From IMG/VR virus record IMGVR_UViG_3300025121_000013: a stretch of DNA of 64,000 bases. One strand, written 5' to 3'. Every line of letters starts with the position of its first letter. Position 1 is the first letter of the stretch. Below the pieces are notes generated by a model. It saw nothing but the letters and a program-made list of their open reading frames with translations. It made no database searches and was not told the DNA's origin. The position numbers were made by a program, and so were the translations under genes. The stretch is from a virus. Lineage: Duplodnaviria; Caudoviricetes. Positions 22,545-60,438 of the stretch are shown here, in pieces.

Positions 22545-25541
22545 TCACGGCTCTATTCCGATTGCCTTTAAATATGAATATAAGAGATTTACAGATTCAG
22601 GGGAAATATTTATTTCTTCATCAAACATCGTCATTCCAGTATTTCTAATACTATTTTTAATATGTTGATTTTTTAAATCTATACAATCAGATTTTGTGGT
22701 AAACATCTCAAAAAGATTTGTGCTCGCTTCGTACCCAATCAAACTAGCGGACTCCATTTCACCACATCTTTGTCCGCCTTTATTCTTTCTTCCACCTAAC
22801 GGTTGAAGAGTTTTCTTTGTATATGAGCCGATTCCTCTGGCGGCGAGCTTATCTTCAGCAATATGTGCAATTCTAAAAAAAGTTAAAAACCCTACTGCAA
22901 CCTCATTTAAAATATCCATCTTAGAAATTGGATCAAAAACCTTATACTTAAAATTCTCATTTGTATATTTTAAAGCGTCTTCAATTCCCTTCATATCTGT
23001 TGACTCAAAAGGTGGCTGATGAACTGAAAAATTCTCTAAAAATTCTTTTTCAATATTTTCTGGAAAATTTTCAATAAATTGTTTTGTATACCAATTGCCT
23101 TCTGTTCTATCAATTATTTTAATAAACTCAATTAAAAATTCCTTTATTTTTTCCTGAGGTTCTGAATTTTTTAACATCTCTAAAGATTTCATTTTAAGGG
23201 TATTAACTGCCATCCCCAAATGAAGTTCAAATAATTGTCCAATATTCATTCTGGAAATTATTCCAAGAGGATTTATACAGATATCTAAATGTCTTCCATC
23301 TTCCAAAACAGGCATTTTTTCTTCAGGAATTATTGCTGAGATAACCCCTTTATTTCCATGTCTGTTAGCTATCTTATCTCCAACCTGGATTTTTCTAAAA
23401 AATATTCCTGACATTTCAACAAGTATACCGCTTATTCTTTCTCCCTTAATTTTATATCTTCCAGCCTGAGAAAATTTATTTAGAAAATTATCTCTAATAA
23501 TATCTTCAATATCTCTTTTTTCAAAATGATCTTTTAGAGATTCTCTAAAAATATCTTCATTTCGTATCTGTTCATTTTTAACGGTTTCAACCCATCTTGA
23601 ATATTCTGGAATTTCTTTGTTCCAATCATTTATATATAAATTGAGGTCTGTGATTATAACATTTTTATCTGTAGTTTGTTCTTCCACTTCTTCAAAAACA
23701 CTAGTAAATTCAGTTCCAGATAAAATACTTTTAGTTTTGGCATATGCTTGCCCTTTATAAATTCTTTCAAATTTTTCTGGAAGAGGTTTATATGAATTTT
23801 TTTCTAAAGATAAAAGAACTTTATTTGATGGAATATTAAAAGATAAATCTTTAAAATGAACTGAGGTAAATGAATCATCTTTTATCAATCGATCTGAAAT
23901 TACAATGCCGTCTTCATAATTATATCCATAATAAACCATAACTCCGGTCAGAAGATTTTTTCCAAAATTTATTTCACCATTTCTACAAAATAAACTCTCC
24001 GCTAAAATATCTCCTTTATTAAATGTATCTCCAACTTTCACATAAACTTTATAAATGTCTAAATTTTTTACATATATTTCTCTATGGCCAACCTCAAAAA
24101 AGTCAGGCGTTTCATCCTCATATTTTACAATTAAAATCTTTTGATCCAAATAAATTACAGTTCCTTTATTTTTTGCAGTTTTTACAAATTGAGTTTTATC
24201 GGTATATAATCCTTCACAACCTGTTTTGATTAATTGTGAATCATTATTTTTTAAAAGAATTGTTTGTCTCATTTGTGATGATGCCATTTGCAATCTCGTC
24301 TGGTCATCTCTTTCAAGAAATGGGACAAATGATACTGGGATAGAAATTGGTTGATTGCTTCTCTCTTCTGAAAATCTTAAATTATTATCTAATTTTGTAT
24401 TTATTAGAAGATTTTGTAAAACTCCACAATTTTCTCTATCTGGGGTATCAACAGGACAGATTCGATTATACATAGAGTCATTTATATCTCTCAACCCCCT
24501 TGGAACATTTTCTCTCTTAAAACCACCAGGCCCAACTAAACTGGTTCTTGATAAACTGGTTAATTCTTCAATTGGATTTATCGCAAAATCAAATTGAACA
24601 ATATCTGAAACATTACATTCAGAAATTATATGGCTAGTATTAATATTGAAATTTGGATTTCGTGTTGTTCTATTTGTAACGCATAAATCAAAAACGGCTT
24701 TAGCAACCTTTTCTAAAACAACATATTCAAAACATCTTATTCTTTTATTTCTTAAATCTAAATCATTATAAAATCCATTAATTAAAGGATAAAGAATTTC
24801 ATCTAAAACATTTTCAGTTCTGAAGAATTGGGAAGACATAATATCAACTTTTGGAATTATATCAAGAGCATATATAACATCATAACCTTTTGATTTAATA
24901 TTATATTTTGTGTAATGCCGCCCTAACATTTCCATCAAAAATTCTTCTTCAATTCCTTCATTTTCAACCTGAAATTCCTCAATATCTTTTAATAAATTTT
25001 CTGAAAAAACATTATGCTCTTTCATACCTAAAAGTTTTTGTTTTCTTTCTTCCAACTCTTTTTCAGAAAAATAGCATGCCATCAATAAAACTAAAGGGAC
25101 TTTTTTACCCAAAAAAGATGCTTTTATAAAAGGCTCTGTTTTTTCATTTATTAACATTAATGTAGAAACACAAGTTCTTAATTTAATAATTTTTCCTCTT
25201 GTCACAACAGGTAAATCGAACATTTGAAATAAAGGCATTTTCTTTCGACCGTTAATATAAAAATAATTATTATCAATTAATTTTGGAACAGACATACTTA
25301 AATCAATCGTTGAATTTCTTTTCTTCAATTTGATAATCAAATTTCGTCTCAATGTTCTATGAAGTTCACCAGAAGTAAATTTATGATCATAAAAATCCAA
25401 TTCTTCGACAATAAAATCAAGATCTCTAGCAGGTTGTAAAATTATATTAACCTTGCTAAGTATTTCATCATATTCATTTTTTCTGATTGAAAACATATTA
25501 TTTACAGGATCGTCAATCTCATAAAAAGGATTTCGAATCAT
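22545..25541 (-). CDS. rpoB: phage multisubunit RNA polymerase, beta-like subunit (set 1)
   Basis: CPVDTPDRENCG, PFLERDDQTRLQMASSQMRQ, GYNYEDG, GDKIANRHGNKG, GGQRCGEME; ATG at 25541 follows GGAGG. Confidence 0.93.
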   Translation of the reverse strand: MIRNPFYEIDDPVNNMFSIRKNEYDEILSKVNIILQPARDLDFIVEELDFYDHKFTSGELHRTLRRNLIIKLKKRNSTIDLSMSVPKLIDNNYFYINGRKKMPLFQMFDLPVVTRGKIIKLRTCVSTLMLINEKTEPFIKASFLGKKVPLVLLMACYFSEKELEERKQKLLGMKEHNVFSENLLKDIEEFQVENEGIEEEFLMEMLGRHYTKYNIKSKGYDVIYALDIIPKVDIMSSQFFRTENVLDEILYPLINGFYNDLDLRNKRIRCFEYVVLEKVAKAVFDLCVTNRTTRNPNFNINTSHIISECNVSDIVQFDFAINPIEELTSLSRTSLVGPGGFKRENVPRGLRDINDSMYNRICPVDTPDRENCGVLQNLLINTKLDNNLRFSEERSNQPISIPVSFVPFLERDDQTRLQMASSQMRQTILLKNNDSQLIKTGCEGLYTDKTQFVKTAKNKGTVIYLDQKILIVKYEDETPDFFEVGHREIYVKNLDIYKVYVKVGDTFNKGDILAESLFCRNGEINFGKNLLTGVMVYYGYNYEDGIVISDRLIKDDSFTSVHFKDLSFNIPSNKVLLSLEKNSYKPLPEKFERIYKGQAYAKTKSILSGTEFTSVFEEVEEQTTDKNVIITDLNLYINDWNKEIPEYSRWVETVKNEQIRNEDIFRESLKDHFEKRDIEDIIRDNFLNKFSQAGRYKIKGERISGILVEMSGIFFRKIQVGDKIANRHGNKGVISAIIPEEKMPVLEDGRHLDICINPLGIISRMNIGQLFELHLGMAVNTLKMKSLEMLKNSEPQEKIKEFLIEFIKIIDRTEGNWYTKQFIENFPENIEKEFLENFSVHQPPFESTDMKGIEDALKYTNENFKYKVFDPISKMDILNEVAVGFLTFFRIAHIAEDKLAARGIGSYTKKTLQPLGGRKNKGGQRCGEMESASLIGYEASTNLFEMFTTKSDCIDLKNQHIKNSIRNTGMTMFDEEINISPESVNLLYSYLKAIGIEP

Positions 25542-25560
25542 TGAATCCTCCATGAAAAAA

Positions 25561-28287
25561 TTAAACTTTTTCCCCTTTTAATATTCGGTCCATAATTCCA
25601 GTATATAAACCTTTATATACCATTCCATTTAATATGCTCTTTTTTGGATTAGAAAAAGCTAAAGCTAAAAGCCAACTTTCATAACTGGGAACCGATTGGA
25701 CACTTTTCATTTCTAAAGATTTTTTATCACGATCTTTGGTTAATCTCCATTTTTTCATTCCATGCCACATTAACTGAGAAATCACACATTCAAAATGAAC
25801 ATGATGTATTTTTCCAGAAGAGGAATATACTTTAAATAAATTATTTAAAGAATTCATAAAATTATTATCTTTAAATCTATGTAATAAATCAGAAGCGGTT
25901 TCTAAATCCCCAATAATATCCATCTGTTTCATCTCATCAATTTTTTCTTCAGATTTTTCATTAATTATAGCAGACCCAGAAGTATGGAAAGTTCTTAAAA
26001 CTAATTGAGTTCCTCTTTCACCAAGACACTGAGCCGCAACTACGCCAATAAATTTACTATTGATAATTTTGTATAAATCTCCATAACAAGTTTTACAAAT
26101 ATTTTCAGATTCACAATAAATAGGACTTCGTAGTTTTAAAGTTTTTCCAACTAAACTTTTAAAATTTAACATTGTAATTTTTTTCAATTCATTATTCTCT
26201 ATATAATTTCTGCCTATTAAAGATTTACTTTTATCTGCATTTTCAATAAAAAGTTCTATACAATCTTTAGTTCCACAATCTTCTAAATTTAAATCAAGTT
26301 GAAGATTACAACAGGTAAAAATCAACTTTCTTGAAAGATAGCCTGAGATTCCAGTATTTAATGCAACGTCTAATAAACCTTTTCGACATCCATATGTGGA
26401 TATAAAAAATTCTCTTTTGGTTAACCCATTCATTAAACTATTTTTAATTGGTTCAGGTAAAATTTGTCCTTCAAAATTTGAGATAAACCCTCTTGATAAA
26501 ACAATTTGTCTAACTTGGTCCCAAGTTCCTCTGGCTCCAGATTCAACCATATAAGAATATTTAAATATTTTCTTTAAAGTTTCTATAGTTTCATTTGAAG
26601 ATATATCTTCGATTTGTTTTCTTATATTTTCTCCTGAAAATATTTTATCTACATATTCCTTAGAATCTTTTGATGTACAATCAATTAAAGACATAGTGGT
26701 TCCGAAAATTGTTGAATATTTAAATCCCAATAATTTGATCTTATCTAAAACTATGGCTAATATTTCTTTAGAATAATTTTGTGAAATATCACTTAAGATT
26801 TTTAATAATTCATTTTTGCCTACAGAGTAATTTATTATAGGATAGTCTTCTGGAAAACACTCATTGAATAATTTTCTTCCTTCTGTGATTTTAATATTTT
26901 TAAAAATAGTTTCTTTTGTTAAATCAGGAAATTTATCATTTGTTAACATATAAATTCCCAAAATTATATCTTGATTTGGCATAGTCGCTAATTGTCCATT
27001 TGATGGACTGTTTAAATTATTTGTTATCAATAACTTATCAAGAACTTCATCTTTTGCCTCTTGAGATATTGGTAAATATACCGCCATCTGATCCCCATCA
27101 AAATCAGCATTAAATGGCTCACATGCTAAAGGGTGAATTTTTATAACATTATCTGAGGATATTTTAATTTTGAAACCAAGCATTCCTAATCTATGAAGCG
27201 TGGGTTGCCTATTTAAAATACAAACTTCACCCTTTACAATTTCTTCAGCTTCTTTATATAAATCCAAACTTTTAAGATCAATGCATCTATCAACAAAATC
27301 TATTGCCTCGTTGAGAATTTTAAAACTTTCATTATTCACTAATTTTTGTGCAATTTGAATTTTAAATAATTCTAAAATCATAACATAGGGTAAAACACAT
27401 TCGTCAATATTAATAGTTGGAGATGGGACTATTACGGCTCTCCCTGAAAAATCAATTCTTTTTCCTAAAATATTTCCTCTTATCAATCCTTCTTTTTTAG
27501 AAAGTTTTTCCAATATAAAAACATAAAGTTGATTTACAGTTTTTTGAATTTCTTTAAAATACATATAATATATCTTTTTATTTTTTTGAACTTCGACCAA
27601 AGTGTTTTCAATGATCTTTTTATTTGTTAAAAGTTGAACATAAAATCTATTTATTGGATCTGCGACAGGAACATTTTTTACCGTAGTTTTTGATGGGGGT
27701 CTTAAATCTGGAGGTAAAACAATTACTTCGTTTATTAAAATATTATTTAAATTTTCTTTTATTATATTCCAATAACTTAATTCTGGATTTTCTTCATCCT
27801 TTAAAATCTCTTTTGTAATTTGTGTAATAAATTCTTTTATTGCCTCAGTTTTTTCAAAAAATATTTTTTCTTTAGGGATGCTTTCAATATCTGTGGTTAT
27901 AACAAATTCTCCATTATCATCTTTATATAAAATACTTTTATCATTTTTCATTAACATAGAAATCATTTCTTTAACTTTCTTTCCGCCAACAAAACTTAAT
28001 AGTTCAAAAAACATTGGATTTACAATTGGAAAAGGCAAAACAATTTTTCCAAATCTTCTTCTTCTTACATTACTATTAACTATGTCAACATTACAAATAT
28101 TACATTTTCCTCCGGATTTTGAAACGCCCCTATAAATTTTACATTGACATGTATAATTTCTTATTGGTCCAAAAAGTTGTTCTGAAAAAAGGCCATTTGG
28201 ATGAAATTTTTTCTTATCAATAATCTCAAATGTAGTTACCTCTGGAAGATTTTCACAAAACTTAGAAATATCTAAGAGTTTGGGCAT
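25561..28287 (-). CDS. rpoC: phage multisubunit RNA polymerase, beta'-like subunit (set 1)
   Basis: N-terminal Zn ribbon, VLPPDLRP, LGKRIDFSGRAV, LNRQPTLH, NADFDGDQM active site, GYLSRKL, QLVLRTFH. Confidence 0.95.
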   Translation of the reverse strand: MPKLLDISKFCENLPEVTTFEIIDKKKFHPNGLFSEQLFGPIRNYTCQCKIYRGVSKSGGKCNICNVDIVNSNVRRRRFGKIVLPFPIVNPMFFELLSFVGGKKVKEMISMLMKNDKSILYKDDNGEFVITTDIESIPKEKIFFEKTEAIKEFITQITKEILKDEENPELSYWNIIKENLNNILINEVIVLPPDLRPPSKTTVKNVPVADPINRFYVQLLTNKKIIENTLVEVQKNKKIYYMYFKEIQKTVNQLYVFILEKLSKKEGLIRGNILGKRIDFSGRAVIVPSPTINIDECVLPYVMILELFKIQIAQKLVNNESFKILNEAIDFVDRCIDLKSLDLYKEAEEIVKGEVCILNRQPTLHRLGMLGFKIKISSDNVIKIHPLACEPFNADFDGDQMAVYLPISQEAKDEVLDKLLITNNLNSPSNGQLATMPNQDIILGIYMLTNDKFPDLTKETIFKNIKITEGRKLFNECFPEDYPIINYSVGKNELLKILSDISQNYSKEILAIVLDKIKLLGFKYSTIFGTTMSLIDCTSKDSKEYVDKIFSGENIRKQIEDISSNETIETLKKIFKYSYMVESGARGTWDQVRQIVLSRGFISNFEGQILPEPIKNSLMNGLTKREFFISTYGCRKGLLDVALNTGISGYLSRKLIFTCCNLQLDLNLEDCGTKDCIELFIENADKSKSLIGRNYIENNELKKITMLNFKSLVGKTLKLRSPIYCESENICKTCYGDLYKIINSKFIGVVAAQCLGERGTQLVLRTFHTSGSAIINEKSEEKIDEMKQMDIIGDLETASDLLHRFKDNNFMNSLNNLFKVYSSSGKIHHVHFECVISQLMWHGMKKWRLTKDRDKKSLEMKSVQSVPSYESWLLALAFSNPKKSILNGMVYKGLYTGIMDRILKGEKV

Positions 28288-28706
28288 TGATCCTCCACAA
28301 TATATATTTTTGGTTTGTGTGTTACCTTTTCATATTTAAGATAAATAGCTTTATCTATAAAATAACTATTATCCAAATTATGTATTGAAATAAACCGATT
28401 CTCTATTATGTTTAAAAATTTTTCGTTAAAATGTTTTCCAATAAAAGGCTTAGGTAAACATAATAAACCAGAATATAAATCAGCGTTCGGATGAACACCA
28501 CATAAAATAATTGATAGAATTCTTTGATCTATCACCCTAACATAATAACCATTAATAATATATGGCAAATCTATTTCTAATATTTTAAAATATTCATTAT
28601 TCAAAATAAAATAAGAAGGAATAATTTTTTTATTTATCTTCTCAATTTTTATTTTAGAATCTTTGTTTATAACTATCGCTCCATTTTGAAGGATGATATC
28701 ATTCAT
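28272..28706 (-). CDS. putative E2/UBC-like protein
   Basis: VHPNADLYSGLLCLP matches the E2 signature HPN-x(3-5)-G-x-(I/L)-C-L; next to E1 and Ubl genes. Confidence 0.55.
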   Translation of the reverse strand: MNDIILQNGAIVINKDSKIKIEKINKKIIPSYFILNNEYFKILEIDLPYIINGYYVRVIDQRILSIILCGVHPNADLYSGLLCLPKPFIGKHFNEKFLNIIENRFISIHNLDNSYFIDKAIYLKYEKVTHKPKIYIVEDQCPNS

Positions 28707-45771: not shown

Positions 45772-45774
45772 TTA

Positions 45775-50468: not shown

Positions 50469-50487
50469 TTTATTTGGTTTCGTATTA

Positions 50488-51366: not shown

Positions 51367-51378
51367 GTTTTATCACCT

Positions 51379-51957
51379 CTATTTATTTGGGGTTAGGAAA
51401 AAGTTTTCTCCTTCTGAATAAATTGTAAATACATCATTAAACCAGCACTTCAATCTTTTTCCAGAAAGTTCTGTTGAAATAAAATCCCTAATTTCTTTTG
51501 GCTCAGGAAGTTTAAAATCTGGGGCCATTTGAATTGTAATGGGAGATACCTTCTTTACATTATCTACGGTTATTGAGGGAATTAATTTTGTATGGGGGCA
51601 ATACACAATTACCAATTTATCCCCAACCATTCGATAAATTTCGTTCTTGTAAAAAAATAAATTAGTATCCAAATCTCTCATAATTCGACCAGACCCCGAT
51701 CCTATAATTCGAGTGATTGAGGTATGTCTGCGGCACAAAAGGTTCTTTTTCTTAGTATCTTTACAAGCTTCACAATCTGAATTATCAATTTTAATTTCAG
51801 TAAAGATTTCAAAATTTGGATCTGATGCCTTTTGAAAAAAGCTCATAATTCTCTGCTTCGACAAGATAAATTTCATTAAAGTGATAGGGTAAACTTCTTC
51901 ATTCTCAACCATTTTTTCAAGGCTAAAAGCATCTAACATCGTTCTCGAACCTTTCAA
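51379..51957 (-). CDS. hypothetical protein with Zn-finger-like motif
   Basis: CEACK...CRRH. Confidence 0.6.
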   Translation of the reverse strand: MKGSRTMLDAFSLEKMVENEEVYPITLMKFILSKQRIMSFFQKASDPNFEIFTEIKIDNSDCEACKDTKKKNLLCRRHTSITRIIGSGSGRIMRDLDTNLFFYKNEIYRMVGDKLVIVYCPHTKLIPSITVDNVKKVSPITIQMAPDFKLPEPKEIRDFISTELSGKRLKCWFNDVFTIYSEGENFFLTPNK

Positions 51958-52093
51958 AAAAAGTTTAAAGAGAAAATAAAAAGTTCAAAAAATAGGTTTA
52001 CAATTTTTAAAAATTAGTTCATCAATTCAATTAAAAAAATTAATAAACCTTCTCTTCATTTATTAATATATATAGATAAAAGGTTAATACATA

Positions 52094-52351
52094 TTAGGTT
52101 TCGATTCGTGCAGGTTGCCTATAATTTAATAAATCAAAAAACAAATTTCCCTTAGGAATTTTACTTGAATTAGAAATAAGATGTTTTGTATCAATGGGCA
52201 TCTGGGTATCCACAAAATAAAGAAAACTCCCATTTGAAAAATTAAAAACAACACCATCATGTGTTTCTTGAACTCCAGTTAATGTTTTTCTGGGGCACGT
52301 TAAAATAACGTTTCCTTTCTTAATTGTAACCATAAATTCTTCCATCGTCAT
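52094..52351 (-). CDS. hypothetical protein
   Basis: 85-aa coupled ORF. Confidence 0.6.
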   Translation of the reverse strand: MTMEEFMVTIKKGNVILTCPRKTLTGVQETHDGVVFNFSNGSFLYFVDTQMPIDTKHLISNSSKIPKGNLFFDLLNYRQPARIET

Positions 52352-52941
52352 TTCCTTTCTCGAATCCCAAGTTCAATTTGTGGTTTTTGTTTATCTGAAA
52401 TATATACTATCCAAGATAATATTCCATCTTTAAAATATGTTCTTAAAAAAAGAAAAATGAACATATTGTTTAAATATTTATTAGATAATAAAGAAACTCT
52501 ATTAATTATTTTATTTCTATTCTCGATAGAAAATTTTTTAATATCAATGAAAATTGTAGGAACAACGCCCTCCCATAATTCTATTAAAAAATCAAGATTT
52601 TTAAAATGTAAAAATTCTAAAAATTCCATAAATAATTTAATATCTTCTTTGGTATAAAATTCCTTCTTAGATGGAAAACTAAAATTATAAACATTCTCTA
52701 TTTTATCTAAAATCTTTTCACAAAAAATTTGTAAATATTCATCTGGTAGTTTTAATATATCTTTAATCTCAATTCGATAAATATTTTCAAAAGTGTCTTT
52801 CCCAATATTATCAATTATTTCTATTTCTTGATAATTTAAAAGACCACTATCAATTCTTTGATCTATTTCTTTTTGATCTTGATCTACCGATGGAATTGGA
52901 GTTGTGTCTCCAATTAAAATTTGAGAATTTTCATTATTCAT
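52348..52941 (-). CDS. hypothetical helical protein
   Basis: 197-aa ORF with GGAG SD. Confidence 0.65.
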   Translation of the reverse strand: MNNENSQILIGDTTPIPSVDQDQKEIDQRIDSGLLNYQEIEIIDNIGKDTFENIYRIEIKDILKLPDEYLQIFCEKILDKIENVYNFSFPSKKEFYTKEDIKLFMEFLEFLHFKNLDFLIELWEGVVPTIFIDIKKFSIENRNKIINRVSLLSNKYLNNMFIFLFLRTYFKDGILSWIVYISDKQKPQIELGIRERK

Positions 52942-52994
52942 CTTTTCTCCAAAAAGTTACAAAAAAATTATTTTAATTTAATCTAAATGTACTA

Positions 52995-55900
52995 TCACTT
53001 TGAGAGCATTAAAGAAATAAAATAACTATTCAAAATATCTTTTGTTGGACTCGTTTTTGATTCTTTCCATTTTGTTTGACCGGTTTGAATTATATCTGAA
53101 ACCATTTCATTTTTCATAGCGTGATCATCAGAAAGAGGCCCAAATAATTCTGAAAGAATAGTGGGGCAATTGTAGCTCAGTAAAGCCCACGTATCACCCT
53201 CTCCAACTCGTTGTCCACCTTCCTTTTTCTTTCCAGCTAAAGGTTGTAATGTTTTTCCAGCGACGGGGCCTGTACTTCTTACGTGAACTTTCATTTCTCC
53301 AATATGTTCTAACTTATAAATATAACTATATCCAAAGGGAACTGGCTTAATTGTTTTTGTCCCATATTCAGGTAATGTTAAATAATAAGAATCTTGTAAG
53401 CCAAGAGATTTCAAGGCTTTTGTTATCTGTTCTTTATTTGGTGATTTAAATGGTGGAACTATGATTGGAACAAATGACTCTTTTTTAATTTGCTCAATTA
53501 ATAAATTATAATTTTGATCTGAAAGATTTTTTATTCTATTTATAAAATCAACAGTATATTTTTTATTTTTTGTATTATCTAATAAACTCAATGTCTTATC
53601 AAAAATATTTAAAACATTTATTCTTTTGGGATTTTCGATAATCACCTGAGATAGTTTTTTAGAAATTAATCCACAATACATTTCGTACATTTGACCAATA
53701 TTCATTCGAGAAATGACACCAATAGGATTCATAATAATTTCAACTCTTTCTCCCCAAGGTGTCCTTGGCATATTTTCTCTTTTTTCAACTAACGAAACTA
53801 TTCCTTTATTACCAAATCTTCCACATAATTTATCTCCGATATTTATATTCAATTCTTGTTCAATTTTAAATCTTATAATTAATCCTTTAAAAGGATTTCC
53901 TTTTATTGTGAAATTTTGTTTATCAGGTTTTCCATATCTCTGATTAGTTCTTTGAATTAATTCATTCAATTTTTGAAACTTTGAACTTGGAAGATTTGAC
54001 AAAACCTCAATATCAACTATTCTTCCACCCGGACTCTTTTTAATATATTGTCCTGAAGAAATTAAACTTGAATCGTCGTCATCAATATTATCAAACCCAA
54101 TCAATTGTTCTATCTCTCCAACAGTTTTTCTTATTATTGGATCACCTTTTTTAATATAAGATCCAATTTCTGCTAAATATAATAATCTATCATTTTCAGA
54201 CATAAATATATCTTCAATGATTCCATGGAGTGAAACCATTTTTTGACTTTCAACTAAATCTTCACTTATCACAAGACCATCTTCAAAATTATATCCCTTA
54301 TATGACATATAGCAAGTTGCCAATGTTCTGCCTAACGCAATGGACCCTTTTGAAATGCAACTTCCTTCAGATATAATTTCATCTTTTTTTACATTATCTC
54401 CACTCTTCACAGTATGATTAAAAACGCTTAATGTATTTTTTCCAGAGCCTGATCTTAAATGAACAGGAATTGTACTAATAATTTTTCTTTCGCCTTTTTC
54501 ACATCTTAAATGAATTTCATCTTTATTCACTTTTTCAACTTTTCCATTGCATGGAGATTTTTTTACAAAATTATCTGAAAGCACTCCGCTTAAAATAGAC
54601 TCATAGCCTGTTTGTATAATTGGCGGCTCTGGATTTTTTAAAGGCAAGGCTTGTCTCGCTTGGTTAACTGACATGATAATACGAGCGCCTTCATTATTTT
54701 CCACGAATGGAATCATCACGGCAGTTGTCGATAAAATTCCACTTCTCTCTTCATTATTTATTTCCTTTAATGCAAAAAGTCCTCGGGTTGTAGTTAACTG
54801 TGAGTCAATTGTTAAATGTTGAACGACTCCAATATTAGAACCTTCCGGAGTGTCCAACGGATCAATATTTCCAAAATATGAAGGATGAATATTTCTAGCT
54901 TCAACTTGAACAACCATTTTATCTGGAATGCCACCTACCTTTTTTCCAACAGGGGAAACCCTTGTCATAGTTGACATTTCTTCTATTGGGTTTGCATATT
55001 CCATATCTGTAACAATTTCAGAATTTAAGAACTCGCTCAAAACCTTTGTTGGAGAAAGTAAAAATTTCGCGTTTTTATTTCCCGACAAAACCTGTTCTTT
55101 ATATTGTGTATATGTCATTAAAATTTGTTTTTGTGCTAAATGCACAATAATTTCTGAATTTCTAATTCTCTGGTTTGAAATATCATTTCTATCGATTACA
55201 GTTCCTTTAATGACATTCTCTGTCATATATTGAATGATATCTTCTAAAATAAATGGTTGTTGTTTATCAATTAAAACTTCTTTGACAATTGGGTCAACTA
55301 TATTTTCAAGGTTTGACTGAATTAAAAATGTAGAATTGATTCGTCCAGATAATTTAATTATTACTAAATTAAAAAATTCTTTTGATGGAAATGGTTTATT
55401 GATTTTTAAAGAAGAAAGATCGGCCCGTATCAATGAACTCACCAATTCTTTCTTCAATTCATTATCTACATTTTTAAATAAAATAAATTTATCTTCAGAA
55501 ATCTTCGTAATAAATAAATCCTTTTTTGTTTTAGCGTTAACAAATTCATATTCTATTCCATACCTCTTCAAAGTATTTTCAAACCCAAAGCTAAATGATA
55601 ATAAAACTAATAAAGGTAATTTATATGATGCCATATAAATTTCAAGATAATTTCCAGCTTTTAATCTACGACTCGAAATATGAAAAGAAGAATATGAGCT
55701 TTCAAATTTAGAATCGTATGGTTTTGGAAATGTAATTGGATCTTGTACTATTTGATTTATCAAACATTTCTTTCTTCCATTAATTCTAAAAGCCCCAGTA
55801 TTTGGGTCAATTCTAGGAATTTCCATTTCGATTAAATGCTCATTATTTAATTGATCTCTTAAAATAGTTTTTATAATAGATATATCAGATTTTTCGACTT

Positions 55901-57095
55901 CTCCAGGTCTTTGCGGTTTATCTTGTATTTCTAAATGTTCAATCTTTAAAGGTATTTCTTTTCTTTCGAGAACTTTAAAAGAATTTATCATATCAGTTTT
56001 TAAATTCTTTTCAAAGTCAATTTTTCTTTTTTCAAAAATATGTTTTGGAGATTTATTATCAACTAACATGGGTATATTTGTTTCTTTGGTAACTAAATCT
56101 TTAGAGTTTGATACAGTTTTTTCTCTCATTAAAATTTTATCTGTATATGTTTTATCTATAACATGAACAGCTTTATTTAATCTTTTTATTGGAATATTTT
56201 TTACAATCTTTTTTGTTTCTAAGGGATTGTTATTAATCTTTTGTAATATCGATGATACCGCAATCTTTTTTTGTATATTTTTATCATCTGGTTTATTAAA
56301 GATTTTTTCAACTTCTTTCTTATTTGACTTTAAATAATCTTTTACAATGTTTTTTAACTTGTCAGTATTTTGAATTGGAATCTCATCTTTTCTCACTGTA
56401 TTCAAAACTTTTTCAGAGGCGTCTTTTATTTCTTCGTCTTTTTCTTCCTCTAAATCTGTTTCTTCATATTTTAAAGATCTTAAATAGGGAATAATTCTTT
56501 GTAGATTATATTCTCTTTCTTTAACTAATAGTCTATAATTAGGTTTATCTTTTAATATACAAAAAAGTAAATCATCAAAAAATACCTCTTCATTTTTTAA
56601 CATCTCAAGAATAGGATAAAACTTCCTGTTAATATATTCTGGAAATTCATTATTTACATTTATTGAATATAGAAAAACTTTTGTATAATTTGATGGAAAC
56701 ATTGAAAAAGTTTTTAATAAAATATTTTTAATAAATAACCCACCCCTCTGACGATAATTTCCTGGTTTTAAAGAATTATCAATTGCCTTTAAATAATAAC
56801 TTAAATCAAAAATCAAAGGTTCATTGGGAGGATAATTTACAGATTGAAATGACTTTAAACTATATTTTCGAAAGGCTTTTTGAATTTCTGGATATAATCT
56901 CGATCTTGGAAAATTTGTATTTGGAATTACCACATTTTTCATATCGGTAAAAGAAATATTTAAACTTTTATAATCATCTATTAACATGGAGTTTTCAGGA
57001 AAATACACAATAAGATAAGGTTTAATTTTGCTCCTTTTATAACGAACCACATCGGTAGTTTGTGTATATTGTCTAAACTTATCTATCCAAAGCAT
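52995..57095 (-). CDS. rpoB: phage multisubunit RNA polymerase, beta-like subunit (set 2) with long N-terminal extension
   Basis: DPLDTPEGSNIG, PFVENNEGARIIMSVNQARQ, GYNFEDG, GDKLCGRFGNKG, GGQRVGEGD. Confidence 0.93.
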   Translation of the reverse strand: MLWIDKFRQYTQTTDVVRYKRSKIKPYLIVYFPENSMLIDDYKSLNISFTDMKNVVIPNTNFPRSRLYPEIQKAFRKYSLKSFQSVNYPPNEPLIFDLSYYLKAIDNSLKPGNYRQRGGLFIKNILLKTFSMFPSNYTKVFLYSINVNNEFPEYINRKFYPILEMLKNEEVFFDDLLFCILKDKPNYRLLVKEREYNLQRIIPYLRSLKYEETDLEEEKDEEIKDASEKVLNTVRKDEIPIQNTDKLKNIVKDYLKSNKKEVEKIFNKPDDKNIQKKIAVSSILQKINNNPLETKKIVKNIPIKRLNKAVHVIDKTYTDKILMREKTVSNSKDLVTKETNIPMLVDNKSPKHIFEKRKIDFEKNLKTDMINSFKVLERKEIPLKIEHLEIQDKPQRPGEVEKSDISIIKTILRDQLNNEHLIEMEIPRIDPNTGAFRINGRKKCLINQIVQDPITFPKPYDSKFESSYSSFHISSRRLKAGNYLEIYMASYKLPLLVLLSFSFGFENTLKRYGIEYEFVNAKTKKDLFITKISEDKFILFKNVDNELKKELVSSLIRADLSSLKINKPFPSKEFFNLVIIKLSGRINSTFLIQSNLENIVDPIVKEVLIDKQQPFILEDIIQYMTENVIKGTVIDRNDISNQRIRNSEIIVHLAQKQILMTYTQYKEQVLSGNKNAKFLLSPTKVLSEFLNSEIVTDMEYANPIEEMSTMTRVSPVGKKVGGIPDKMVVQVEARNIHPSYFGNIDPLDTPEGSNIGVVQHLTIDSQLTTTRGLFALKEINNEERSGILSTTAVMIPFVENNEGARIIMSVNQARQALPLKNPEPPIIQTGYESILSGVLSDNFVKKSPCNGKVEKVNKDEIHLRCEKGERKIISTIPVHLRSGSGKNTLSVFNHTVKSGDNVKKDEIISEGSCISKGSIALGRTLATCYMSYKGYNFEDGLVISEDLVESQKMVSLHGIIEDIFMSENDRLLYLAEIGSYIKKGDPIIRKTVGEIEQLIGFDNIDDDDSSLISSGQYIKKSPGGRIVDIEVLSNLPSSKFQKLNELIQRTNQRYGKPDKQNFTIKGNPFKGLIIRFKIEQELNINIGDKLCGRFGNKGIVSLVEKRENMPRTPWGERVEIIMNPIGVISRMNIGQMYEMYCGLISKKLSQVIIENPKRINVLNIFDKTLSLLDNTKNKKYTVDFINRIKNLSDQNYNLLIEQIKKESFVPIIVPPFKSPNKEQITKALKSLGLQDSYYLTLPEYGTKTIKPVPFGYSYIYKLEHIGEMKVHVRSTGPVAGKTLQPLAGKKKEGGQRVGEGDTWALLSYNCPTILSELFGPLSDDHAMKNEMVSDIIQTGQTKWKESKTSPTKDILNSYFISLMLSK

Positions 57096-57757
57096 TATTT
57101 CAATTCTCCAGTCAGAATTTTTTCAAGAGGAGACGCTTCTAATTGTTCCTCAGTTATTAACCCGGTGACAATAGCTTTATTCACATTTTCAAAAGCTAAG
57201 GACTGTAAGAATCCTGTTTGAAAAACTAATTCTTTTATATTCATCATAATTGGATTCCAAGTTTTTCCCATTCTAGCGGGAAAAGCTGTATTTGCTTGAT
57301 CACGTAAAACTTGAGAAATTAAAGTTTCAATATGAACTGAATCCGAGCCAGAAGATTCAAATATTTTAAAAAGTTTATTATAAAGATGAGACACGTCTTT
57401 ATAAATCTCTTTTCCGCCTAAAAGTCTCTCTACATATTGGACCTGTTCTTTTATGTTATCAGTCCCATAACTAGTTGATAAAATAATTTCACCCTCAGAA
57501 AATGTCAATATAATTAAATTCTCAGTTTTTTCCATATTGGAACCATTTATTTCAACTGAGTAGTCGAGAATTAAATCAAATTTATTTTTGTCACTAAATT
57601 GAATACGACTGATTAAAGATCCTAGCCAAATTTGATTTTCTAAAAATTGTATATTATTGTCAATTTCGTAGTCATCTAAATTTAATATTAAAGAACAATC
57701 TTTTTTTGCTATTAAAAAATTATTTTCCTGAGTTAAATAATCAGAGATTTTATACAT
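57095..57757 (-). CDS. RNA polymerase beta' C-terminal fragment (set 2)
   Basis: QVQYVERLLGG (trigger helix 2-like), VHIETLISQVLR, FLQSLAFENV...SPLEKILTG. Confidence 0.8.
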   Translation of the reverse strand: MYKISDYLTQENNFLIAKKDCSLILNLDDYEIDNNIQFLENQIWLGSLISRIQFSDKNKFDLILDYSVEINGSNMEKTENLIILTFSEGEIILSTSYGTDNIKEQVQYVERLLGGKEIYKDVSHLYNKLFKIFESSGSDSVHIETLISQVLRDQANTAFPARMGKTWNPIMMNIKELVFQTGFLQSLAFENVNKAIVTGLITEEQLEASPLEKILTGELK

Positions 57758-58093
57758 TTATGATCTCCTCGTTTTTAATATAAATAGTGTAATTTTTAAT
57801 TTTCTTTTCATTTCTTCATTTTTAAAAAAACATTTAACTCCACAAAATTTTCTGTATGTCAATGAAGAATTAATATATTTTAATATGTTTCCGCATTCAC
57901 ATTTAGGTATTTCATATAAATCATTTAAAATATGATATATTCTTTCACTAAAATTATCTTTTTTTAGATACTTAGTTTCACTAATGATGAAATCATATAT
58001 TTTTCTATCATACTTTTTAATAGTTTGTCTAAAAGACCCAGGATTTTTAATATTCTTTTCTAAAAAATATTTTTTTACTTCAAATCTATCCAT
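57758..58093 (-). mobile_element. truncated homing-endonuclease-like zinc-ribbon ORF between the beta' halves
   Basis: ERIYHILND..IPKCECGN...YRKFCGVKC; no nuclease motif follows. Confidence 0.5.
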
Positions 58094-60438
58094 TAAAGTT
58101 CCAAATCGTCAGACGGGTTGTTTTCAAGAATATCTTTAAGCATATTTCTTTTTGCGATTGTTACTTTGCCTCCAGTATGAAAAACTCTCATAATATTTTG
58201 AGTACTCATTTGTCCCAATTTTAAAGCAGTAAAAATTCCAATGTACGGGGTTTTGTTAACCTTCAATAAATCTCCATAACATGTATGACAAATTTTTAAA
58301 GATTCGCAAAAAATCGGTGTTCTGATATTTGCTATATCGCCTTCTTTCAAACCAGATTCTTCAAATTTTATAATTTTATCATTCTTTAAAATATAACGGC
58401 CCATAAATCTAGAGACCATTTCTTTGGTAAGTCTAATATTTAAAGTTCTTTTTGTTTTGCAATCCTTTAATATAGGATCAGCTTCAACAGAGTTTAAAAG
58501 ATAAACTAATTTTCTTGCAAAATAGCCAGTTTGACTAGTCGATATAACCCGTGAAATGATGCCATGTCTTGATCCAGAGGATGCTTCAAAATATTGTTTA
58601 TTTGTTAACCCTTCAGAAAAAGAACTTTCAATTGGGGGCAAAACGTTTCCTTTTGGATCAGCGATGATACCCTTTGCCACTAAAATTTGCATAGGAGAAT
58701 CCCATCCTTTTCCAGCACCAGATTCAATTATTTCATATAATCCAGTATCTTTTAAATGTTCGATTAATATTTTTTTCATTTTTTCTAAAAGGTCTGAAGC
58801 CTCTTCTATAGTGGCCCCACTCATTTTTTTCTTTAATTGAATTATAGAATCAGGAATTGTTAATTCATCTAGGGGAAGGCTATCTCCAAAAATCGTAGCC
58901 CATTTAAATCCTATATTTTCAACCTTTAAAAATGTATTTAGAGTTATTTCTTTTCCGTATTTTTGATATATTTCTTGAATTAAATTGTTGACAATTTTCT
59001 TGTTTATTTGTCCATCGACAAATCTAAAATCTTCTGGAAAACAATAATTAAAAATTGCTCTTCCAAGAGTGGTTTGTCTTTTTTTAAATATTACAGGTAA
59101 ATATGGATTTGTTCCTTTTTCTAATAATTCCTTTGAAACCGAAACTGGGGATTTATTTACTTTTACATCTTTTGTTAAACTATAAAGTCCAAGAGCCATT
59201 TCTTTTGATAATTCAAAGGTCATACTATTTGTTGATGAACCGGCTGTTAGCCTCATCATTTTCATTTTTGCTTCTTCCTGAGCCTCTTTACTCAAAGGAA
59301 GAAAAACACCCATTGCATCTCCATCAAAGTCGGCGTTAAACCCACCGACTCTTAAAGCACATAATTGCATGGTATTTCCATGATGAATTTTTATATAAAA
59401 CGCCCCATAACCTTGATCATGAAGAACTGGATCTCGCTTTAATAAAACAACTCTATCTTTTGAGGCGATCTCCGTGGCTTGAAAAAATATATCATACAAT
59501 TCTTTAGGAACTTCATCACCTATTTTTATAGATTTTATAACCTGAAGAATTGTATCAACATTTAATTCACTTTTTGTATATTTTTTTATTTCTCTTGATA
59601 AAAGATTTTTATCTATAAGATTTGTATGTAAAAGAATATGAATTATAAATGGCTCTAATAGTTTTACAGCCATTTTAAATGGAAGTCCAACCTCACTTAC
59701 TTTTAAATCTGGTCCAGGGGTGATAACCGCTCGCCCAGAAAAATCGACACGTTTTCCCAATAATTGATTTCTAATAATTCCATCCTTTTTTTGAACTCTT
59801 GTGCGTATAAAATCATCATGAGAATTTACCGAAGTTTGAAGACTAAAATTTAATAAATCAAAAAGTTCACCTTTTGAGCCAACAGATTTTATTTGTGAGG
59901 CTCTATACATAACTGATAAATAAATATCATTTAAACTATCATGAATCCATTGATTTGATTCATCTTTGAAGATAGGTCTTAAATCAGGGGGAATAACTGG
60001 AAGTTTTCTAATAAATAAAAGTCCCTTTTTATTAGATTCTTTTAATAAAAAGATTAATTTTTCTCTTGTACGTGTTTCCCCTCTAAATTCAATTTTATCA
60101 AAATCTTCCATAAAATTTTGTAATCCAGTTCTCCCTTCTTCTGCTGTTTCTATTTTTCCATCGGTTATAATATATTTTTCTTCTGTAGATATATATTTCT
60201 CAAATTTTCTATGTATTTGTTTTAAAATTTTATACGCGGTTGGATGTAAAACATAAGCTCCAAGATCTATATAAGAAAACTTTTGCCTTCTTTCAAAAGA
60301 TCCTTCAGGTCCAAAAATATCTTCAGAAAATAACCCTTCTTGATTAAACCCACCACTTCTCGAAAAAAATTCTGTAGATAAAACTGGAGTCAGTTTTCTA
60401 CAAAATTCTTCAACATTTAAAAAATTAAGATTGGCCAT
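58093..60438 (-). CDS. rpoC: RNA polymerase beta' N-terminal/catalytic part (set 2)
   Basis: VIPPDLRP, LGKRVDFSGRAV, LKRDPVLH, NADFDGDAM, GYFARKL, QNIMRVFHTGG. Confidence 0.93.
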   Translation of the reverse strand: MANLNFLNVEEFCRKLTPVLSTEFFSRSGGFNQEGLFSEDIFGPEGSFERRQKFSYIDLGAYVLHPTAYKILKQIHRKFEKYISTEEKYIITDGKIETAEEGRTGLQNFMEDFDKIEFRGETRTREKLIFLLKESNKKGLLFIRKLPVIPPDLRPIFKDESNQWIHDSLNDIYLSVMYRASQIKSVGSKGELFDLLNFSLQTSVNSHDDFIRTRVQKKDGIIRNQLLGKRVDFSGRAVITPGPDLKVSEVGLPFKMAVKLLEPFIIHILLHTNLIDKNLLSREIKKYTKSELNVDTILQVIKSIKIGDEVPKELYDIFFQATEIASKDRVVLLKRDPVLHDQGYGAFYIKIHHGNTMQLCALRVGGFNADFDGDAMGVFLPLSKEAQEEAKMKMMRLTAGSSTNSMTFELSKEMALGLYSLTKDVKVNKSPVSVSKELLEKGTNPYLPVIFKKRQTTLGRAIFNYCFPEDFRFVDGQINKKIVNNLIQEIYQKYGKEITLNTFLKVENIGFKWATIFGDSLPLDELTIPDSIIQLKKKMSGATIEEASDLLEKMKKILIEHLKDTGLYEIIESGAGKGWDSPMQILVAKGIIADPKGNVLPPIESSFSEGLTNKQYFEASSGSRHGIISRVISTSQTGYFARKLVYLLNSVEADPILKDCKTKRTLNIRLTKEMVSRFMGRYILKNDKIIKFEESGLKEGDIANIRTPIFCESLKICHTCYGDLLKVNKTPYIGIFTALKLGQMSTQNIMRVFHTGGKVTIAKRNMLKDILENNPSDDLEL

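What the first reader, a model, noticed from the sequence alone, without database searches (positions are those of the whole stretch)
22545..60438. Two complete, mostly unsplit multisubunit RNA polymerases with beta' before beta
Seen: two NADFDGD active sites and two GDK..RxGNKG/GGQRxGE beta subunits, with gene order beta' then beta in both. Set 1 beta' has the N-terminal Zn ribbon, set 2 lacks it, and no alpha subunit is present in the window. Known: phiKZ and AR9-type jumbo phages carry virion and non-virion RNAPs whose subunits are split into several genes. Inference: these are virion and non-virion RNAPs of a lineage with less fragmented subunits, informative for phage RNAP evolution.
Basis: partly seen in the sequence, partly recalled or inferred. 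Interest (0 to 1): 0.65.

Follow-up and report, generated by a model that had tools for sequence, protein, structure and literature searches.

The report
Two near-whole RNA polymerases, huge phage
An uncultured huge phage encodes two complete bacterial-type RNA polymerase cores that are the largely undivided counterparts of the particle-carried and later-made polymerases of phiKZ/AR9-type phages. In this genome one subunit has been cut by a selfish-gene remnant at the same spot where the phiKZ and AR9 enzymes are divided.

Summary
All genes lie on the minus strand.

**Set A (52995-60438):** beta' of 781 aa, then a 111-aa ORF, then a 220-aa beta' C-terminal piece, then beta of 1366 aa.

**Set B (22545-28287):** beta' of 908 aa with a CxCx12CxxC zinc ribbon, then beta of 1002 aa.

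Both sets keep NADFDGD, GDK..RxGNKG and GGQRxGE. Neither set groups inside bacterial rpoC.

- **Set A** groups with virion-RNAP beta' N-terminal subunits (SH-aLRT 97). Its 220-aa piece is the homologue of head protein phiKZ gp176.
- **Set B** best matches AR9 non-virion subunits. The trees allow this grouping but do not prove it.
- **Split in Set A:** in 32 of 41 related IMG/VR loci the Set A beta' is one ~1000-aa ORF. Here, and in 8 relatives, it is cut in the trigger loop, where phiKZ gp80 and AR9 gp263 end. ORF111 is a homing-endonuclease remnant.
- **Promoter-like motif:** a conserved AGAACAAA motif precedes the Set A module. It contains the AACA core of the AR9 late promoter.
- **Not found:** alpha, sigma, chimallin, PhuZ, or gp68/gp226 homologues, including in a complete 277-kb relative.

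The lineage was published in 2020 as mReC (Weinheimer & Aylward), and their tables list both gene sets, but the text never links them to virion and non-virion RNAPs. This scan found the same layout on at least five other genomes. It is a new member of a known kind and is of moderate interest.

The parts
60908..60923 (-). Promoter-like motif AGAACAAATATTAAAA, 40 nt upstream of the first gene of the Set A module. It follows a hairpin plus T-run.
   Evidence: This is the only zero-mismatch match in the window. GAACAWA occurs in 26 of 33 distinct upstream regions of the orthologous gene in relatives, against a background of 0.12 per 280 nt. It contains AACA, the core of the AR9 late promoter (PMC5449584).
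60440..60868 (-). Conserved 142-aa ORF directly upstream of the Set A beta'. Function unknown.
   Evidence: Present in the same position in 38 of 40 related loci. No Pfam or PHROG hit. The AF2 model has pLDDT 81 and no PDB fold match.
58093..60438 (-). Set A (virion-type) beta', N-terminal and middle part, 781 aa. It ends about 25 aa after the trigger-helix motif FHTGG.
   Evidence: Pfam Rpb1 domains 1, 2, 3 and 5. NADFDGD at 368. It aligns to residues 1-779 of the ~1000-aa single ORF of relatives. Clade with vRNAP beta' N-terminal subunits, SH-aLRT 97.
57758..58093 (-). ORF111, which splits the Set A beta'. It is a remnant or N-terminal domain of a homing-endonuclease-type mobile gene.
   Evidence: 35-44% identical to a 90-aa ORF at the same site in G004, to the N-terminus of the 333/344-aa ORFs of L225 (same site) and L222, and to that of a 608-aa homing endonuclease in L253 (phrog_3339, E 5e-139). 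Absent from the 32 unsplit relatives. Its start overlaps the beta' stop (TAATG).
57095..57757 (-). Set A beta' C-terminal piece, 220 aa, preceded by its own GAGGAG ribosome-binding site.
   Evidence: Aligns to residues ~785-998 of the unsplit relatives. phrog_2926 is the family of phiKZ gp176 (structural head protein), the SPN3US virion protein next to the prohead protease, and one AR9 gene.
52995..57095 (-). Set A beta, 1366 aa, with a ~480-aa N-terminal extension.
   Evidence: Pfam Rpb2 domains 3, 6 and 7. phrog_3148 (profile of 1424 positions) E 3e-43, and a tblastn match to phiKZ gp178. Catalytic motifs intact. Start overlaps the stop of the 220-aa ORF.
52094..52941 (-). Two conserved downstream ORFs (197 aa and 85 aa) of the Set A module. 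Function unknown.
   Evidence: Each is present downstream of beta in 35 of 40 related loci. The 197-aa model is all-alpha, pLDDT 86, with no significant PDB match.
28272..29590 (-). Two conserved ORFs (295 aa and 144 aa) directly upstream of the Set B beta'.
   Evidence: Present in 36 and 28 of 38 related loci. No PHROG or Pfam hit. Another reader assigns them to the neighbouring ubiquitin-like system.
25561..28287 (-). Set B (non-virion-type) beta', 908 aa, unsplit, with an N-terminal zinc ribbon.
   Evidence: Pfam Rpb1 domains 2-5. CxCx12CxxC at 47-65 and NADFDGD at 393. Best AR9 hits are the nvRNAP beta' N- and C-terminal subunits. 299 IMG/VR stretches encode relatives; the 80 loci kept match over the full length at 52-59% identity.
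22545..25553 (-). Set B beta, 1002 aa, unsplit.
   Evidence: Pfam Rpb2 domains 3, 6 and 7. Motifs intact. Follows beta' in all 38 Set-B-type loci. Best AR9 hit is the nvRNAP beta C-terminal subunit.
22505..22537 (-). Hairpin GGGATGGGAG...CTCCCATCCC directly after the Set B beta gene, terminator-like. Coordinates are approximate.
   Evidence: Read from the intergenic sequence 22399-22544. Not tested further.

Best explanation
The window comes from a huge uncultured tailed phage of the published mReC lineage. The phage carries its own two-stage transcription machinery.

Set A (142-aa ORF, beta' in two pieces, beta, and conserved small ORFs) is the ortholog of the virion RNA polymerase of phiKZ/AR9-type phages. 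By inference it is made late, packaged in the head, injected with the DNA, and transcribes early genes without host RNAP.

Set B (beta' then beta) is the counterpart of the non-virion polymerase. By inference it is made early and transcribes middle and late genes, including the Set A module from the conserved AGAACAAA...AAAT element.

Both enzymes work without alpha or sigma, as the phiKZ and AR9 enzymes do. In this lineage each catalytic subunit is normally one polypeptide.

In this genome a homing-endonuclease-type gene, now a 111-aa remnant, inserted into the trigger-loop insertion site of the Set A beta'. The result is two translationally coupled pieces that should reassemble, as the naturally split phiKZ and AR9 pieces do.

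What is shown: gene content, intact motifs, orthology of Set A, the position of the split, and conservation of the synteny and of the motif.

What is inferred: packaging, timing, promoter use, and activity of the split enzyme.
For: - **Domains and motifs:** Pfam and PHROG domains and catalytic motifs are intact in all four large proteins.
- **beta' N-half tree:** bacteria form one clade (100), Set B forms one clade (100), and Set A plus the split vRNAP beta' N-terminal subunits form one clade (97).
- **AU test:** holding Set B with the split nvRNAP subunits gives a likelihood 4.45 units higher than the free tree.
- **Best hits in AR9:** Set A matches gp144 and gp263, annotated virion RNAP. Set B matches gp269 and gp153, annotated non-virion.
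- **C-terminal piece:** phrog_2926 (phiKZ gp176 head protein and the SPN3US virion protein beside the prohead protease) matches the 220-aa ORF here and the C-terminus of the 1002-aa beta' of the complete relative G001.
- **Split frequency:** 32 of 41 Set-A-type loci have an unsplit beta'. Seven of those loci, plus G004 and this window, are split at residue ~780.
- **Split position:** the site lies just after FHTGG, where gamma-proteobacterial beta' carries its large insertion and where phiKZ gp80 and AR9 gp263 end.
- **ORF111:** it is related to homing-endonuclease genes.
- **Expression signals:** strong ribosome-binding sites and overlapping stop/start codons at the junctions.
- **Synteny:** both modules are conserved across 38-40 loci.
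- **Motif:** conserved upstream of the Set A module in 26 of 33 relatives, and it contains the AR9 late-promoter core AACA.
- **No alpha or sigma** found.
Against: - There is no virion proteome, no host and no expression data, so packaging and timing rest on orthology alone.
- The beta' C-half tree does not recover Set A with vRNAP or Set B with nvRNAP. The split phage subunits sit on separate long branches. The AU test for Set A with vRNAP gives p 0.12: not rejected, but not supported.
- No homologue of the nvRNAP fifth subunit was found (phiKZ gp68, phrog_3209; AR9 gp226, phrog_25005). How Set B recognises promoters is therefore unknown.
- The AGAACAAA motif has one perfect copy in the window, and its spacing to a TA start differs by one base from the AR9 consensus.
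- I picked the motif after seeing the sequences.
- No beta trees were made.
Confidence: 0.75

Rival explanations
1. Both polymerases are made only inside the cell and divide the work by time or gene class. Set A is not packaged, and the phage starts infection with host RNAP.
For: There is no direct evidence of packaging. No sequence match covers the ~480-aa N-terminal extension of the Set A beta, and no prohead protease lies beside the module, unlike in phiKZ and SPN3US. Cultured relatives with one unsplit RNAP exist, for example Carin-5 and Yersinia phage GN1.
Against: The Set A beta' N-half is in one clade with the virion subunits (97). Its C-terminal piece is homologous to a protein annotated as a structural head protein in phiKZ. 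No sigma factor or other host-RNAP redirecting factor was noticed.
Confidence: 0.15
2. The split Set A beta' is a broken gene. In this genome Set A is decaying, or it needs RNA or protein splicing to work.
For: A 111-aa ORF interrupts the gene in a functionally central element, the trigger loop. ORF111 looks like a truncated mobile gene. One relative, L253, has an intein-like segment at this site.
Against: Both pieces keep open frames and conserved residues and align end to end with the unsplit forms, with almost no residues unaligned. The 220-aa piece has its own GAGGAG ribosome-binding site and ATG. The same split occurs in 8 other genomes, three of them with no inserted ORF, and at the natural subunit boundary of phiKZ and AR9. 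The insert is filled entirely by ORF111, which leaves no room for a group I intron core. Rfam finds nothing.
Confidence: 0.05
3. One set is cellular rpoBC, either from host contamination of the assembly or from a recent capture from a host.
For: Both beta' proteins hit solved bacterial beta' chains far better than phiKZ or AR9 chains (E 8e-109 and 2e-61). Set B keeps the bacterial zinc ribbon and NADFDGDQM.
Against: The best of 598 bacterial rpoC matches are only 28-34% identical and are spread over many phyla. Bacteria form a clade at 100 that excludes both sets in both half-trees. Gene order is the reverse of rpoB-rpoC and there is no alpha. 299 IMG/VR stretches encode relatives of the Set B beta', and the 80 loci kept match at 52-59% over the full length; in the loci examined the phage gene neighbours are the same. 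GC content matches the rest of the window.
Confidence: 0.01

Closest known systems
mReC, multi-subunit-RNAP-encoding Caudovirales (Weinheimer & Aylward 2020, Nat Commun 11:4506, PMC7481178)
   Same: Same lineage. The complete 277,131-bp relative G001 (IMG/VR 3300001782_000005, equal to WOR52_10000459) is listed in their Supplementary Datasets. Their tables contain both size classes of gene pairs: beta 1362-1365 aa with beta' 1002-1009 aa, and beta 1011-1019 aa with beta' 899-904 aa. Some contigs have two rows. The proteins here are 50-59% identical to those of that clade.
   Different: Their main text never uses the words virion or phiKZ. It treats the RNAP as one phylogenetic marker and does not describe two paralogous enzymes, their correspondence to vRNAP and nvRNAP, or any splits. 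The 781-aa Set A beta' of this genome would fail their 800-aa length filter.
Virion RNAP of phiKZ-like and AR9/PBS1-like jumbo phages (Sokolova et al. 2020, PMC7598289)
   Same: The Set A beta' N-half is in one clade with their beta' N-terminal subunits. It has a gp176/gp244-type C-terminal piece. Its beta matches the PHROG family with a 1424-position profile and phiKZ gp178. There is no alpha or sigma. In this genome the cut at the trigger loop is in the same place as their C-beta' / small-virion-protein boundary.
   Different: Three polypeptides here and two in most relatives, against at least five in phiKZ. There is no cut after the catalytic double-psi barrel. Sequence is much closer to bacterial beta'. 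Virion location is untested.
Non-virion RNAP of AR9 and phiKZ (PDB 7S00/7S01 and 7OGP, identifiers cited from an earlier scan note; PMC5449584, PMC8287921)
   Same: Set B best matches the AR9 nvRNAP beta' N- and C-terminal subunits and its beta C-terminal subunit. An AACA-containing element precedes the presumed late Set A module, as at AR9 late promoters.
   Different: Two polypeptides instead of four. It retains the bacterial beta' zinc ribbon. No gp68 or gp226 homologue was found by profile. Tree support for orthology is only permissive.
Cultured phages with a single unsplit beta'/beta pair (Cobetia phage Carin-5, Yersinia phages GN1 and YerA41, Rhizobium phage RHph_TM30, Vibrio phage Va2)
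   Same: Unsplit subunits. Carin-5 and GN1 also have beta' directly followed by beta.
   Different: Only one beta'-like place per genome. Genomes are 128-208 kb. In the trees they fall outside both Set A and Set B. Carin-5 has an annotated sigma-like gene before beta'.
Genes in pieces made by free-standing homing endonucleases. This rests on my own knowledge of the Aeromonas phage Aeh1 nrdA split by mobE (Friedrich et al. 2007, PNAS), not checked here.
   Same: A mobile endonuclease-type ORF sits inside a conserved enzyme gene, leaving two separately translated pieces that presumably reassemble.
   Different: Here the inserted ORF is only a 111-aa N-terminal remnant, and the same site is split in other genomes with no insert left.

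Membership tests
mReC (Weinheimer & Aylward 2020) | Tailed-phage contig encoding both beta and beta' of a multisubunit RNAP, each at least 800 aa, with NADxDGD | tested here: met
   Set B: 908 and 1002 aa. Set A beta: 1366 aa. NADFDGD is present in both beta' proteins. The Set A beta' is 781 aa only because of the split.
mReC (Weinheimer & Aylward 2020) | RNAP clusters apart from cellular RNAPs and with the other mReC sequences | tested here: met
   Bacteria form one clade at 100 that excludes both sets. The sequences are 50-59% identical to WOR52_10000459, an mReC contig named in their datasets.
phiKZ/AR9-type virion RNAP (Set A) | Subunits orthologous to the vRNAP beta and beta' fragments | tested here: met
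   beta' N-half clade at 97. Best AR9 hits are gp144 and gp263. phrog_2926 piece. The C-half tree is neutral (AU p 0.12).
phiKZ/AR9-type virion RNAP (Set A) | Proteins present in the virion and injected | not testable with these tools
   Uncultured phage. No proteome exists.
phiKZ/AR9-type virion RNAP (Set A) | Core made of at least five polypeptides (beta' in three, beta in two) | tested here: not met
   Three polypeptides here and two in 32 of 41 related loci.
phiKZ/AR9-type non-virion RNAP (Set B) | Subunits orthologous to the nvRNAP fragments | tested here: inconclusive
   Best AR9 hits are nvRNAP subunits. The constrained tree is 4.45 lnL better than the free tree, p 0.58. The free trees place the split nvRNAPs on a long branch apart.
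phiKZ/AR9-type non-virion RNAP (Set B) | Fifth, promoter-specificity subunit (phiKZ gp68 or AR9 gp226) | tested here: inconclusive
   phrog_3209 and phrog_25005 find nothing in the genome records searched (G000-G005 and G000-G003), although they find phiKZ and LPJP1 respectively. These proteins diverge fast: the phiKZ profile also misses AR9.
phiKZ/AR9-type RNAPs (both sets) | No alpha, omega or sigma homologues encoded | tested here: met
   PF01000 and PF04542 are absent from G000-G003 and G005, including the complete G001. Controls were positive. Omega was not searched.
Chimalliviridae (nucleus-forming phages) | Chimallin nuclear shell protein | tested here: not met
   phrog_4795 has no match in G000-G005, including the complete G001. 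The phiKZ control gave E 2e-232. A very divergent shell protein cannot be excluded.
Cellular rpoBC operon | Order rpoB then rpoC, nesting within a bacterial phylum, alpha present in the genome | tested here: not met
   The order is reversed. Both sets lie outside the bacterial clade. Identity to any bacterial rpoC is at most 34%. No alpha was found.

The most novel reading that the evidence does not exclude
The unsplit state is ancestral for both jumbo-phage polymerases, and the fragmented phiKZ/AR9 enzymes arose from it through invasion by selfish genes at a few tolerant sites. This lineage would preserve the process in progress.

- The trigger-loop cut that separates phiKZ gp80 from gp176 is polymorphic here: 9 of 43 genomes are split. 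It is seen with a full-size endonuclease-type ORF, with a remnant, with an intein-like segment, or with nothing left.
- A more divergent relative, L253, already has its beta' in three ORFs, and it branches next to the fully split virion enzymes.

If true, this argues against the proposal that the many-piece phage enzymes are relics older than the fusion into cellular beta and beta' (Iyer et al. 2021, PMC7824862).
Probability: 0.55. Interest if true: 0.65.

Novelty: new member of a known kind. Interest (0 to 1): 0.5.

Why it matters
Reviews up to 2026 still describe jumbo-phage polymerases as built from at least four or five fragments, and they call the origin of the two enzymes unknown (PMC7598289, PMC13282480). 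One comparative study argues that the fragments are primordial (PMC7824862).

A widespread lineage changes the picture in two ways.

- Both enzymes exist as whole beta' and beta proteins that stay close enough to bacterial RNAP to align well. This gives a usable outgroup for rooting the phiKZ/AR9 enzymes.
- Sporadic, evidently secondary cuts fall on the phiKZ/AR9 subunit boundary. This shows a concrete route to fragmentation.

In practice, a two- or three-protein alpha-less, sigma-less RNAP core should be easier to express and to solve than a five-piece virion enzyme. According to the 2020 review, no vRNAP had yet been purified.

The conserved AGAACAAA element is a directly testable promoter candidate.

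Tried and rejected
- **Host contamination or cellular rpoBC:** rejected.
- **Group I intron at the split:** rejected. The insert is filled by ORF111, both flanking ORFs have their own stop and start, and Rfam found no family in the window at the gathering threshold.
- **Pattern scan of IMG/VR with the 781-aa protein alone:** found nothing. An alignment of six orthologues was needed.
- **beta' C-half tree:** dominated by long branches and not decisive.
- **beta phylogeny:** not made. The beta genes of AR9-like phages are interrupted by up to five introns (a six-exon CDS in AR9), and the phiKZ beta C-terminal pieces were not detected by the search.
- **AR9 vRNAP beta' N-terminal exons:** could not be fully recovered by tblastn. 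I used Goe21, LPJP1 and DC4 instead.
- **Absent by profile:** chimallin, PhuZ, gp68, gp226, alpha and sigma.
- **Conserved small neighbours of Set A (142, 197, 85, 192 and 292 aa):** no Pfam hit for the two that were scanned (142 and 197 aa) and no PHROG hit for any. The two I modelled have no convincing PDB fold match. Foldseek best E was 0.5 and 1.7. VIA best Z was 5.2 for the 142-aa model and 6.8 for the 197-aa model, both on common helical arrangements.
- **A second candidate motif, TTTTTGNNACTTTTT:** seen upstream of three Set A module genes, but its count is not above chance in the window.
Full report
**What is there**

The window is 27-29% G+C and all its genes lie on the minus strand, tightly packed. 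There are no tRNAs and no Rfam matches.

Four large ORFs carry RNAP domains.

- **Set B:** beta' at 25561-28287 (908 aa), followed 7 nt later by beta at 22545-25553 (1002 aa).
- **Set A:** beta' at 58093-60438 (781 aa), a 111-aa ORF (57758-58093), a 220-aa ORF (57095-57757), and beta at 52995-57095 (1366 aa). Each junction has an overlapping or abutting stop and start: TAATG, TAAATG, TAATG.

Both beta' proteins have NADFDGD, the second zinc site and the trigger-helix motif. Both beta proteins have GDK..RxGNKG and GGQRxGE.

**The genome**

The file holds 125.6 kb of the record, and CheckV estimates 40% completeness. Earlier notes of this scan describe a ~265-kb groundwater phage.

Other genes in the window also fit a large lytic phage:
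- a two-gene type II topoisomerase
- SbcCD
- an SF2 helicase
- a DNA ligase
- NAD salvage genes
- FolE2

**Which polymerase is which**

PHROG profiles of the split jumbo-phage subunits hit both sets. I then searched whole phage records.

- In AR9, the Set A beta' best matches gp144 (E 5e-26) and gp263 (E 2e-20). Both are annotated as virion RNAP beta' N- and C-termini.
- The Set B beta' best matches gp153 (E 5e-28) and gp269 (E 4e-19). Both are annotated as non-virion.
- In phiKZ, the Set A N-terminal half hits gp180, a structural head protein, and Set B hits gp55.

The 220-aa ORF matches phrog_2926. That profile finds exactly one gene in each of three phages:
- phiKZ: gp176, a structural head protein
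- SPN3US: the virion protein next to the prohead protease, which appears to be the small virion subunit gp244 of the Sokolova review
- AR9: one gene

The same profile also matches the C-terminus of the 1002-aa beta' of the complete relative G001.

A maximum-likelihood tree of the beta' N-half (51 rows, LG+C20) gives three results.
- Bacteria are monophyletic (100).
- Set B is monophyletic (100).
- Set A groups with the split vRNAP beta' N-terminal subunits of phiKZ and Goe21, and with matching pieces of SPN3US, LPJP1 and DC4 that were not labelled beforehand, in one clade (97).

The split nvRNAP subunits sit on a long branch. Holding them together with Set B gives a tree 4.45 log-likelihood units better than the free search (AU p 0.58). 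That grouping is therefore allowed, but it is not demonstrated.

The C-half tree is dominated by long branches. Set A with vRNAP is not rejected there (p 0.12).

Both beta' proteins are much closer to solved bacterial beta' chains (E 8e-109 and 2e-61) than to phiKZ or AR9 chains. However, the best of 598 bacterial genome matches are only 28-34% identical and show no phylum preference. Neither set is a contaminant or a recent capture.

**The lineage**

IMG/VR holds 299 stretches that encode relatives of the Set B beta'. The 80 loci kept match over the full length at 52-59% identity. An alignment-based scan for the Set A beta' confirmed 524 stretches.

In five large contigs both sets are present. 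One of them, G001, is a complete 277,131-bp genome with terminal repeats.

I tabulated ORFs in 80 loci.
- All 41 Set-A-type loci and all 38 Set-B-type loci have beta' followed by beta.
- Set B is never split.
- The Set A beta' is one ORF of about 1000 aa in 32 of 41 loci.

Synteny is conserved.
- **Set A module:** 142 aa, beta', beta, 197 aa, 85 aa, in 35-38 of 40 loci.
- **Set B module:** 295 aa, 144 aa, beta', beta, FolE2, in 28-36 of 38 loci.

G001 is WOR52_10000459, one of the mReC contigs of Weinheimer & Aylward 2020. Their supplementary tables list both size classes of gene pairs, and some contigs have two rows. Their main text contains neither 'virion' nor 'phiKZ'.

I found no later paper that connects mReC with vRNAP and nvRNAP. 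The 2026 review still describes four- and five-piece enzymes of unknown origin.

**The split in this genome**

The 781-aa and 220-aa ORFs align to residues 1-779 and ~785-998 of the unsplit orthologues. ORF111 has no counterpart in those orthologues.

The same break, at residues 778-785, occurs in L212, L216, L218, L221, L223, L225, L226 and G004. What lies between the two pieces varies:
- nothing
- about 270 nt
- a 333-aa ORF
- about 890 nt
- in G004, a stretch holding two short ORFs (90 and 128 aa)

ORF111 is 35-44% identical to several ORFs:
- the N-terminus of the 333-aa ORF that sits at the same site in L225
- the N-terminus of a 344-aa ORF between beta' and beta in L222
- a 90-aa ORF at the same site in G004
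- the N-terminus of a 608-aa homing endonuclease in L253 (phrog_3339, E 5e-139)

The C-terminal half of the L253 endonuclease is 41% identical to AR9 gp264, the endonuclease gene that sits directly after the AR9 vRNAP beta' C-terminal gene.

In a MAFFT alignment the break lies just after FHTGG, inside the trigger loop. A gamma-proteobacterial beta' has its large insertion at that point, and Firmicutes have none. phiKZ gp80 ends at aligned residue ~768, and AR9 gp263 ends right after the same helix.

So the cut in this genome coincides with the boundary between the C-terminal beta' subunit and the small virion protein of phiKZ and AR9.

Other sporadic cuts exist in relatives:
- beta' cut at the NADFDGD motif in L230
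- beta' in three ORFs in L253, which has an intein-like segment at the trigger-loop site (PF14890, E 4e-6, below Pfam's cut-off)
- beta cut at three different places in L206, L220 and L229

L253 branches next to the fully split vRNAPs (88).

**Signals**

The Set A module is preceded by a hairpin with a T-run and then AGAACAAATATTAAAA (60908-60923), 40 nt before the 142-aa gene.

- In relatives, 26 of 33 distinct upstream regions of that gene carry GAACAWA, mostly as T-AGAACAAA-W4-5-AAAT. The background is 0.12 per 280 nt.
- Nine of 33 regions upstream of the Set B module also carry it.
- In the held 125.6 kb, 4 of the 12 coding-strand copies of AGAACAAA fall in the 5% of the DNA that is intergenic.

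The element contains AACA, the essential -11 to -8 core of AR9 late promoters (PMC5449584). Reading it as the promoter from which Set B transcribes the late virion-polymerase genes is an inference. I chose the motif after seeing the sequences.

**What is missing**

No alpha, sigma, chimallin, PhuZ, gp68-family or gp226-family protein was found in this genome or in four to five relatives, one of them complete. Positive controls worked for every profile.

The lineage therefore resembles AR9 rather than phiKZ in lacking a detectable nucleus shell. Its promoter-specificity factor, if any, is unidentified.

The conserved 142-aa and 197-aa neighbours of Set A fold confidently (pLDDT 81 and 86) but match no solved structure convincingly.

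**Verdict**

The phage group and its polymerase genes are already public. This scan has reported the same layout on at least five other genomes. As a find it is a new member of a known kind.

What this window adds is a clear case of a secondary cut, associated with a mobile gene, at the subunit boundary used by phiKZ and AR9. It also adds a lineage-wide promoter candidate. Both bear on the open question of how the fragmented jumbo-phage polymerases arose.

Noticed in passing
window:31494-37410 (-): Two large paralogous proteins (785 and 814 aa) have weak Prok-E2_D hits, and a 371-aa protein has a Prok-JAB hit. They lie upstream of the Set B module. Other readers flagged this as a ubiquitin-like conjugation system.
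   Followed up: no
window:61280-63519 (-): NAD salvage pair directly upstream of the Set A module: a nicotinamide phosphoribosyltransferase (NAMPT_N plus NAPRTase, E 4e-44) and a cytidylyltransferase/NMNAT-like protein fused to a NUDIX domain.
   Followed up: no
window:21553-22398 (-): A type I GTP cyclohydrolase FolE2 (E 1e-60) sits directly after the Set B beta gene. It holds that position in 33 of 38 related loci. This suggests a link between the non-virion polymerase module and the phage's 7-deazaguanine pathway, which was noted elsewhere in this genome.
   Followed up: partly
L253:5178-13295 (IMGVR_UViG_3300022697_000186, 236 kb): A more divergent relative has its virion-type beta' in three ORFs. 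A 608-aa homing endonuclease lies just upstream. An intein-splicing-domain hit (E 4e-6, below cut-off) starts the third ORF at the trigger-loop site.
   Followed up: partly
L230:4282-8917 (IMGVR_UViG_3300037468_000575): The virion-type beta' is cut right at the NADFDGD active-site motif, with about 1 kb between the two ORFs. This looks like another mobile-element insertion at a conserved site.
   Followed up: no
window:30001-32000: G+C rises to 0.37 against about 0.27 elsewhere. The stretch covers ORFs 30282-30719 and 30805-31497 and the start of the JAB-like gene. It may be foreign DNA or a compositionally constrained region.
   Followed up: no
window:48035-50411 (-): A MoxR-like AAA ATPase (AAA_5) is paired with a DUF2201 metallopeptidase/vWA protein, between the topoisomerase genes and the Set A module.
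   Followed up: no
G000:C1:31794, 43494, 53604 (outside the window): Three further intergenic copies of AGAACAAA followed by A/T-rich sequence, 23-119 nt upstream of genes on the main coding strand. These are candidate members of the same promoter class.
   Followed up: partly
window:52348-52941 (-): The conserved 197-aa protein after the Set A beta is predicted to be all-alpha. The C-terminal half of the model gives weak matches (Z about 4.2-4.5) to winged-helix domains and to a segment of a phiKZ nvRNAP chain (7ogp_C). These are too weak to interpret.
   Followed up: partly
L284:6360-6950 (Cobetia phage Carin-5): In this cultured phage with a single unsplit RNAP, the gene directly before beta' is annotated as an RNA polymerase sigma factor. 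Pfam gives no significant hit for it. The position matches that of the 142-aa ORF before the Set A beta' here.
   Followed up: partly
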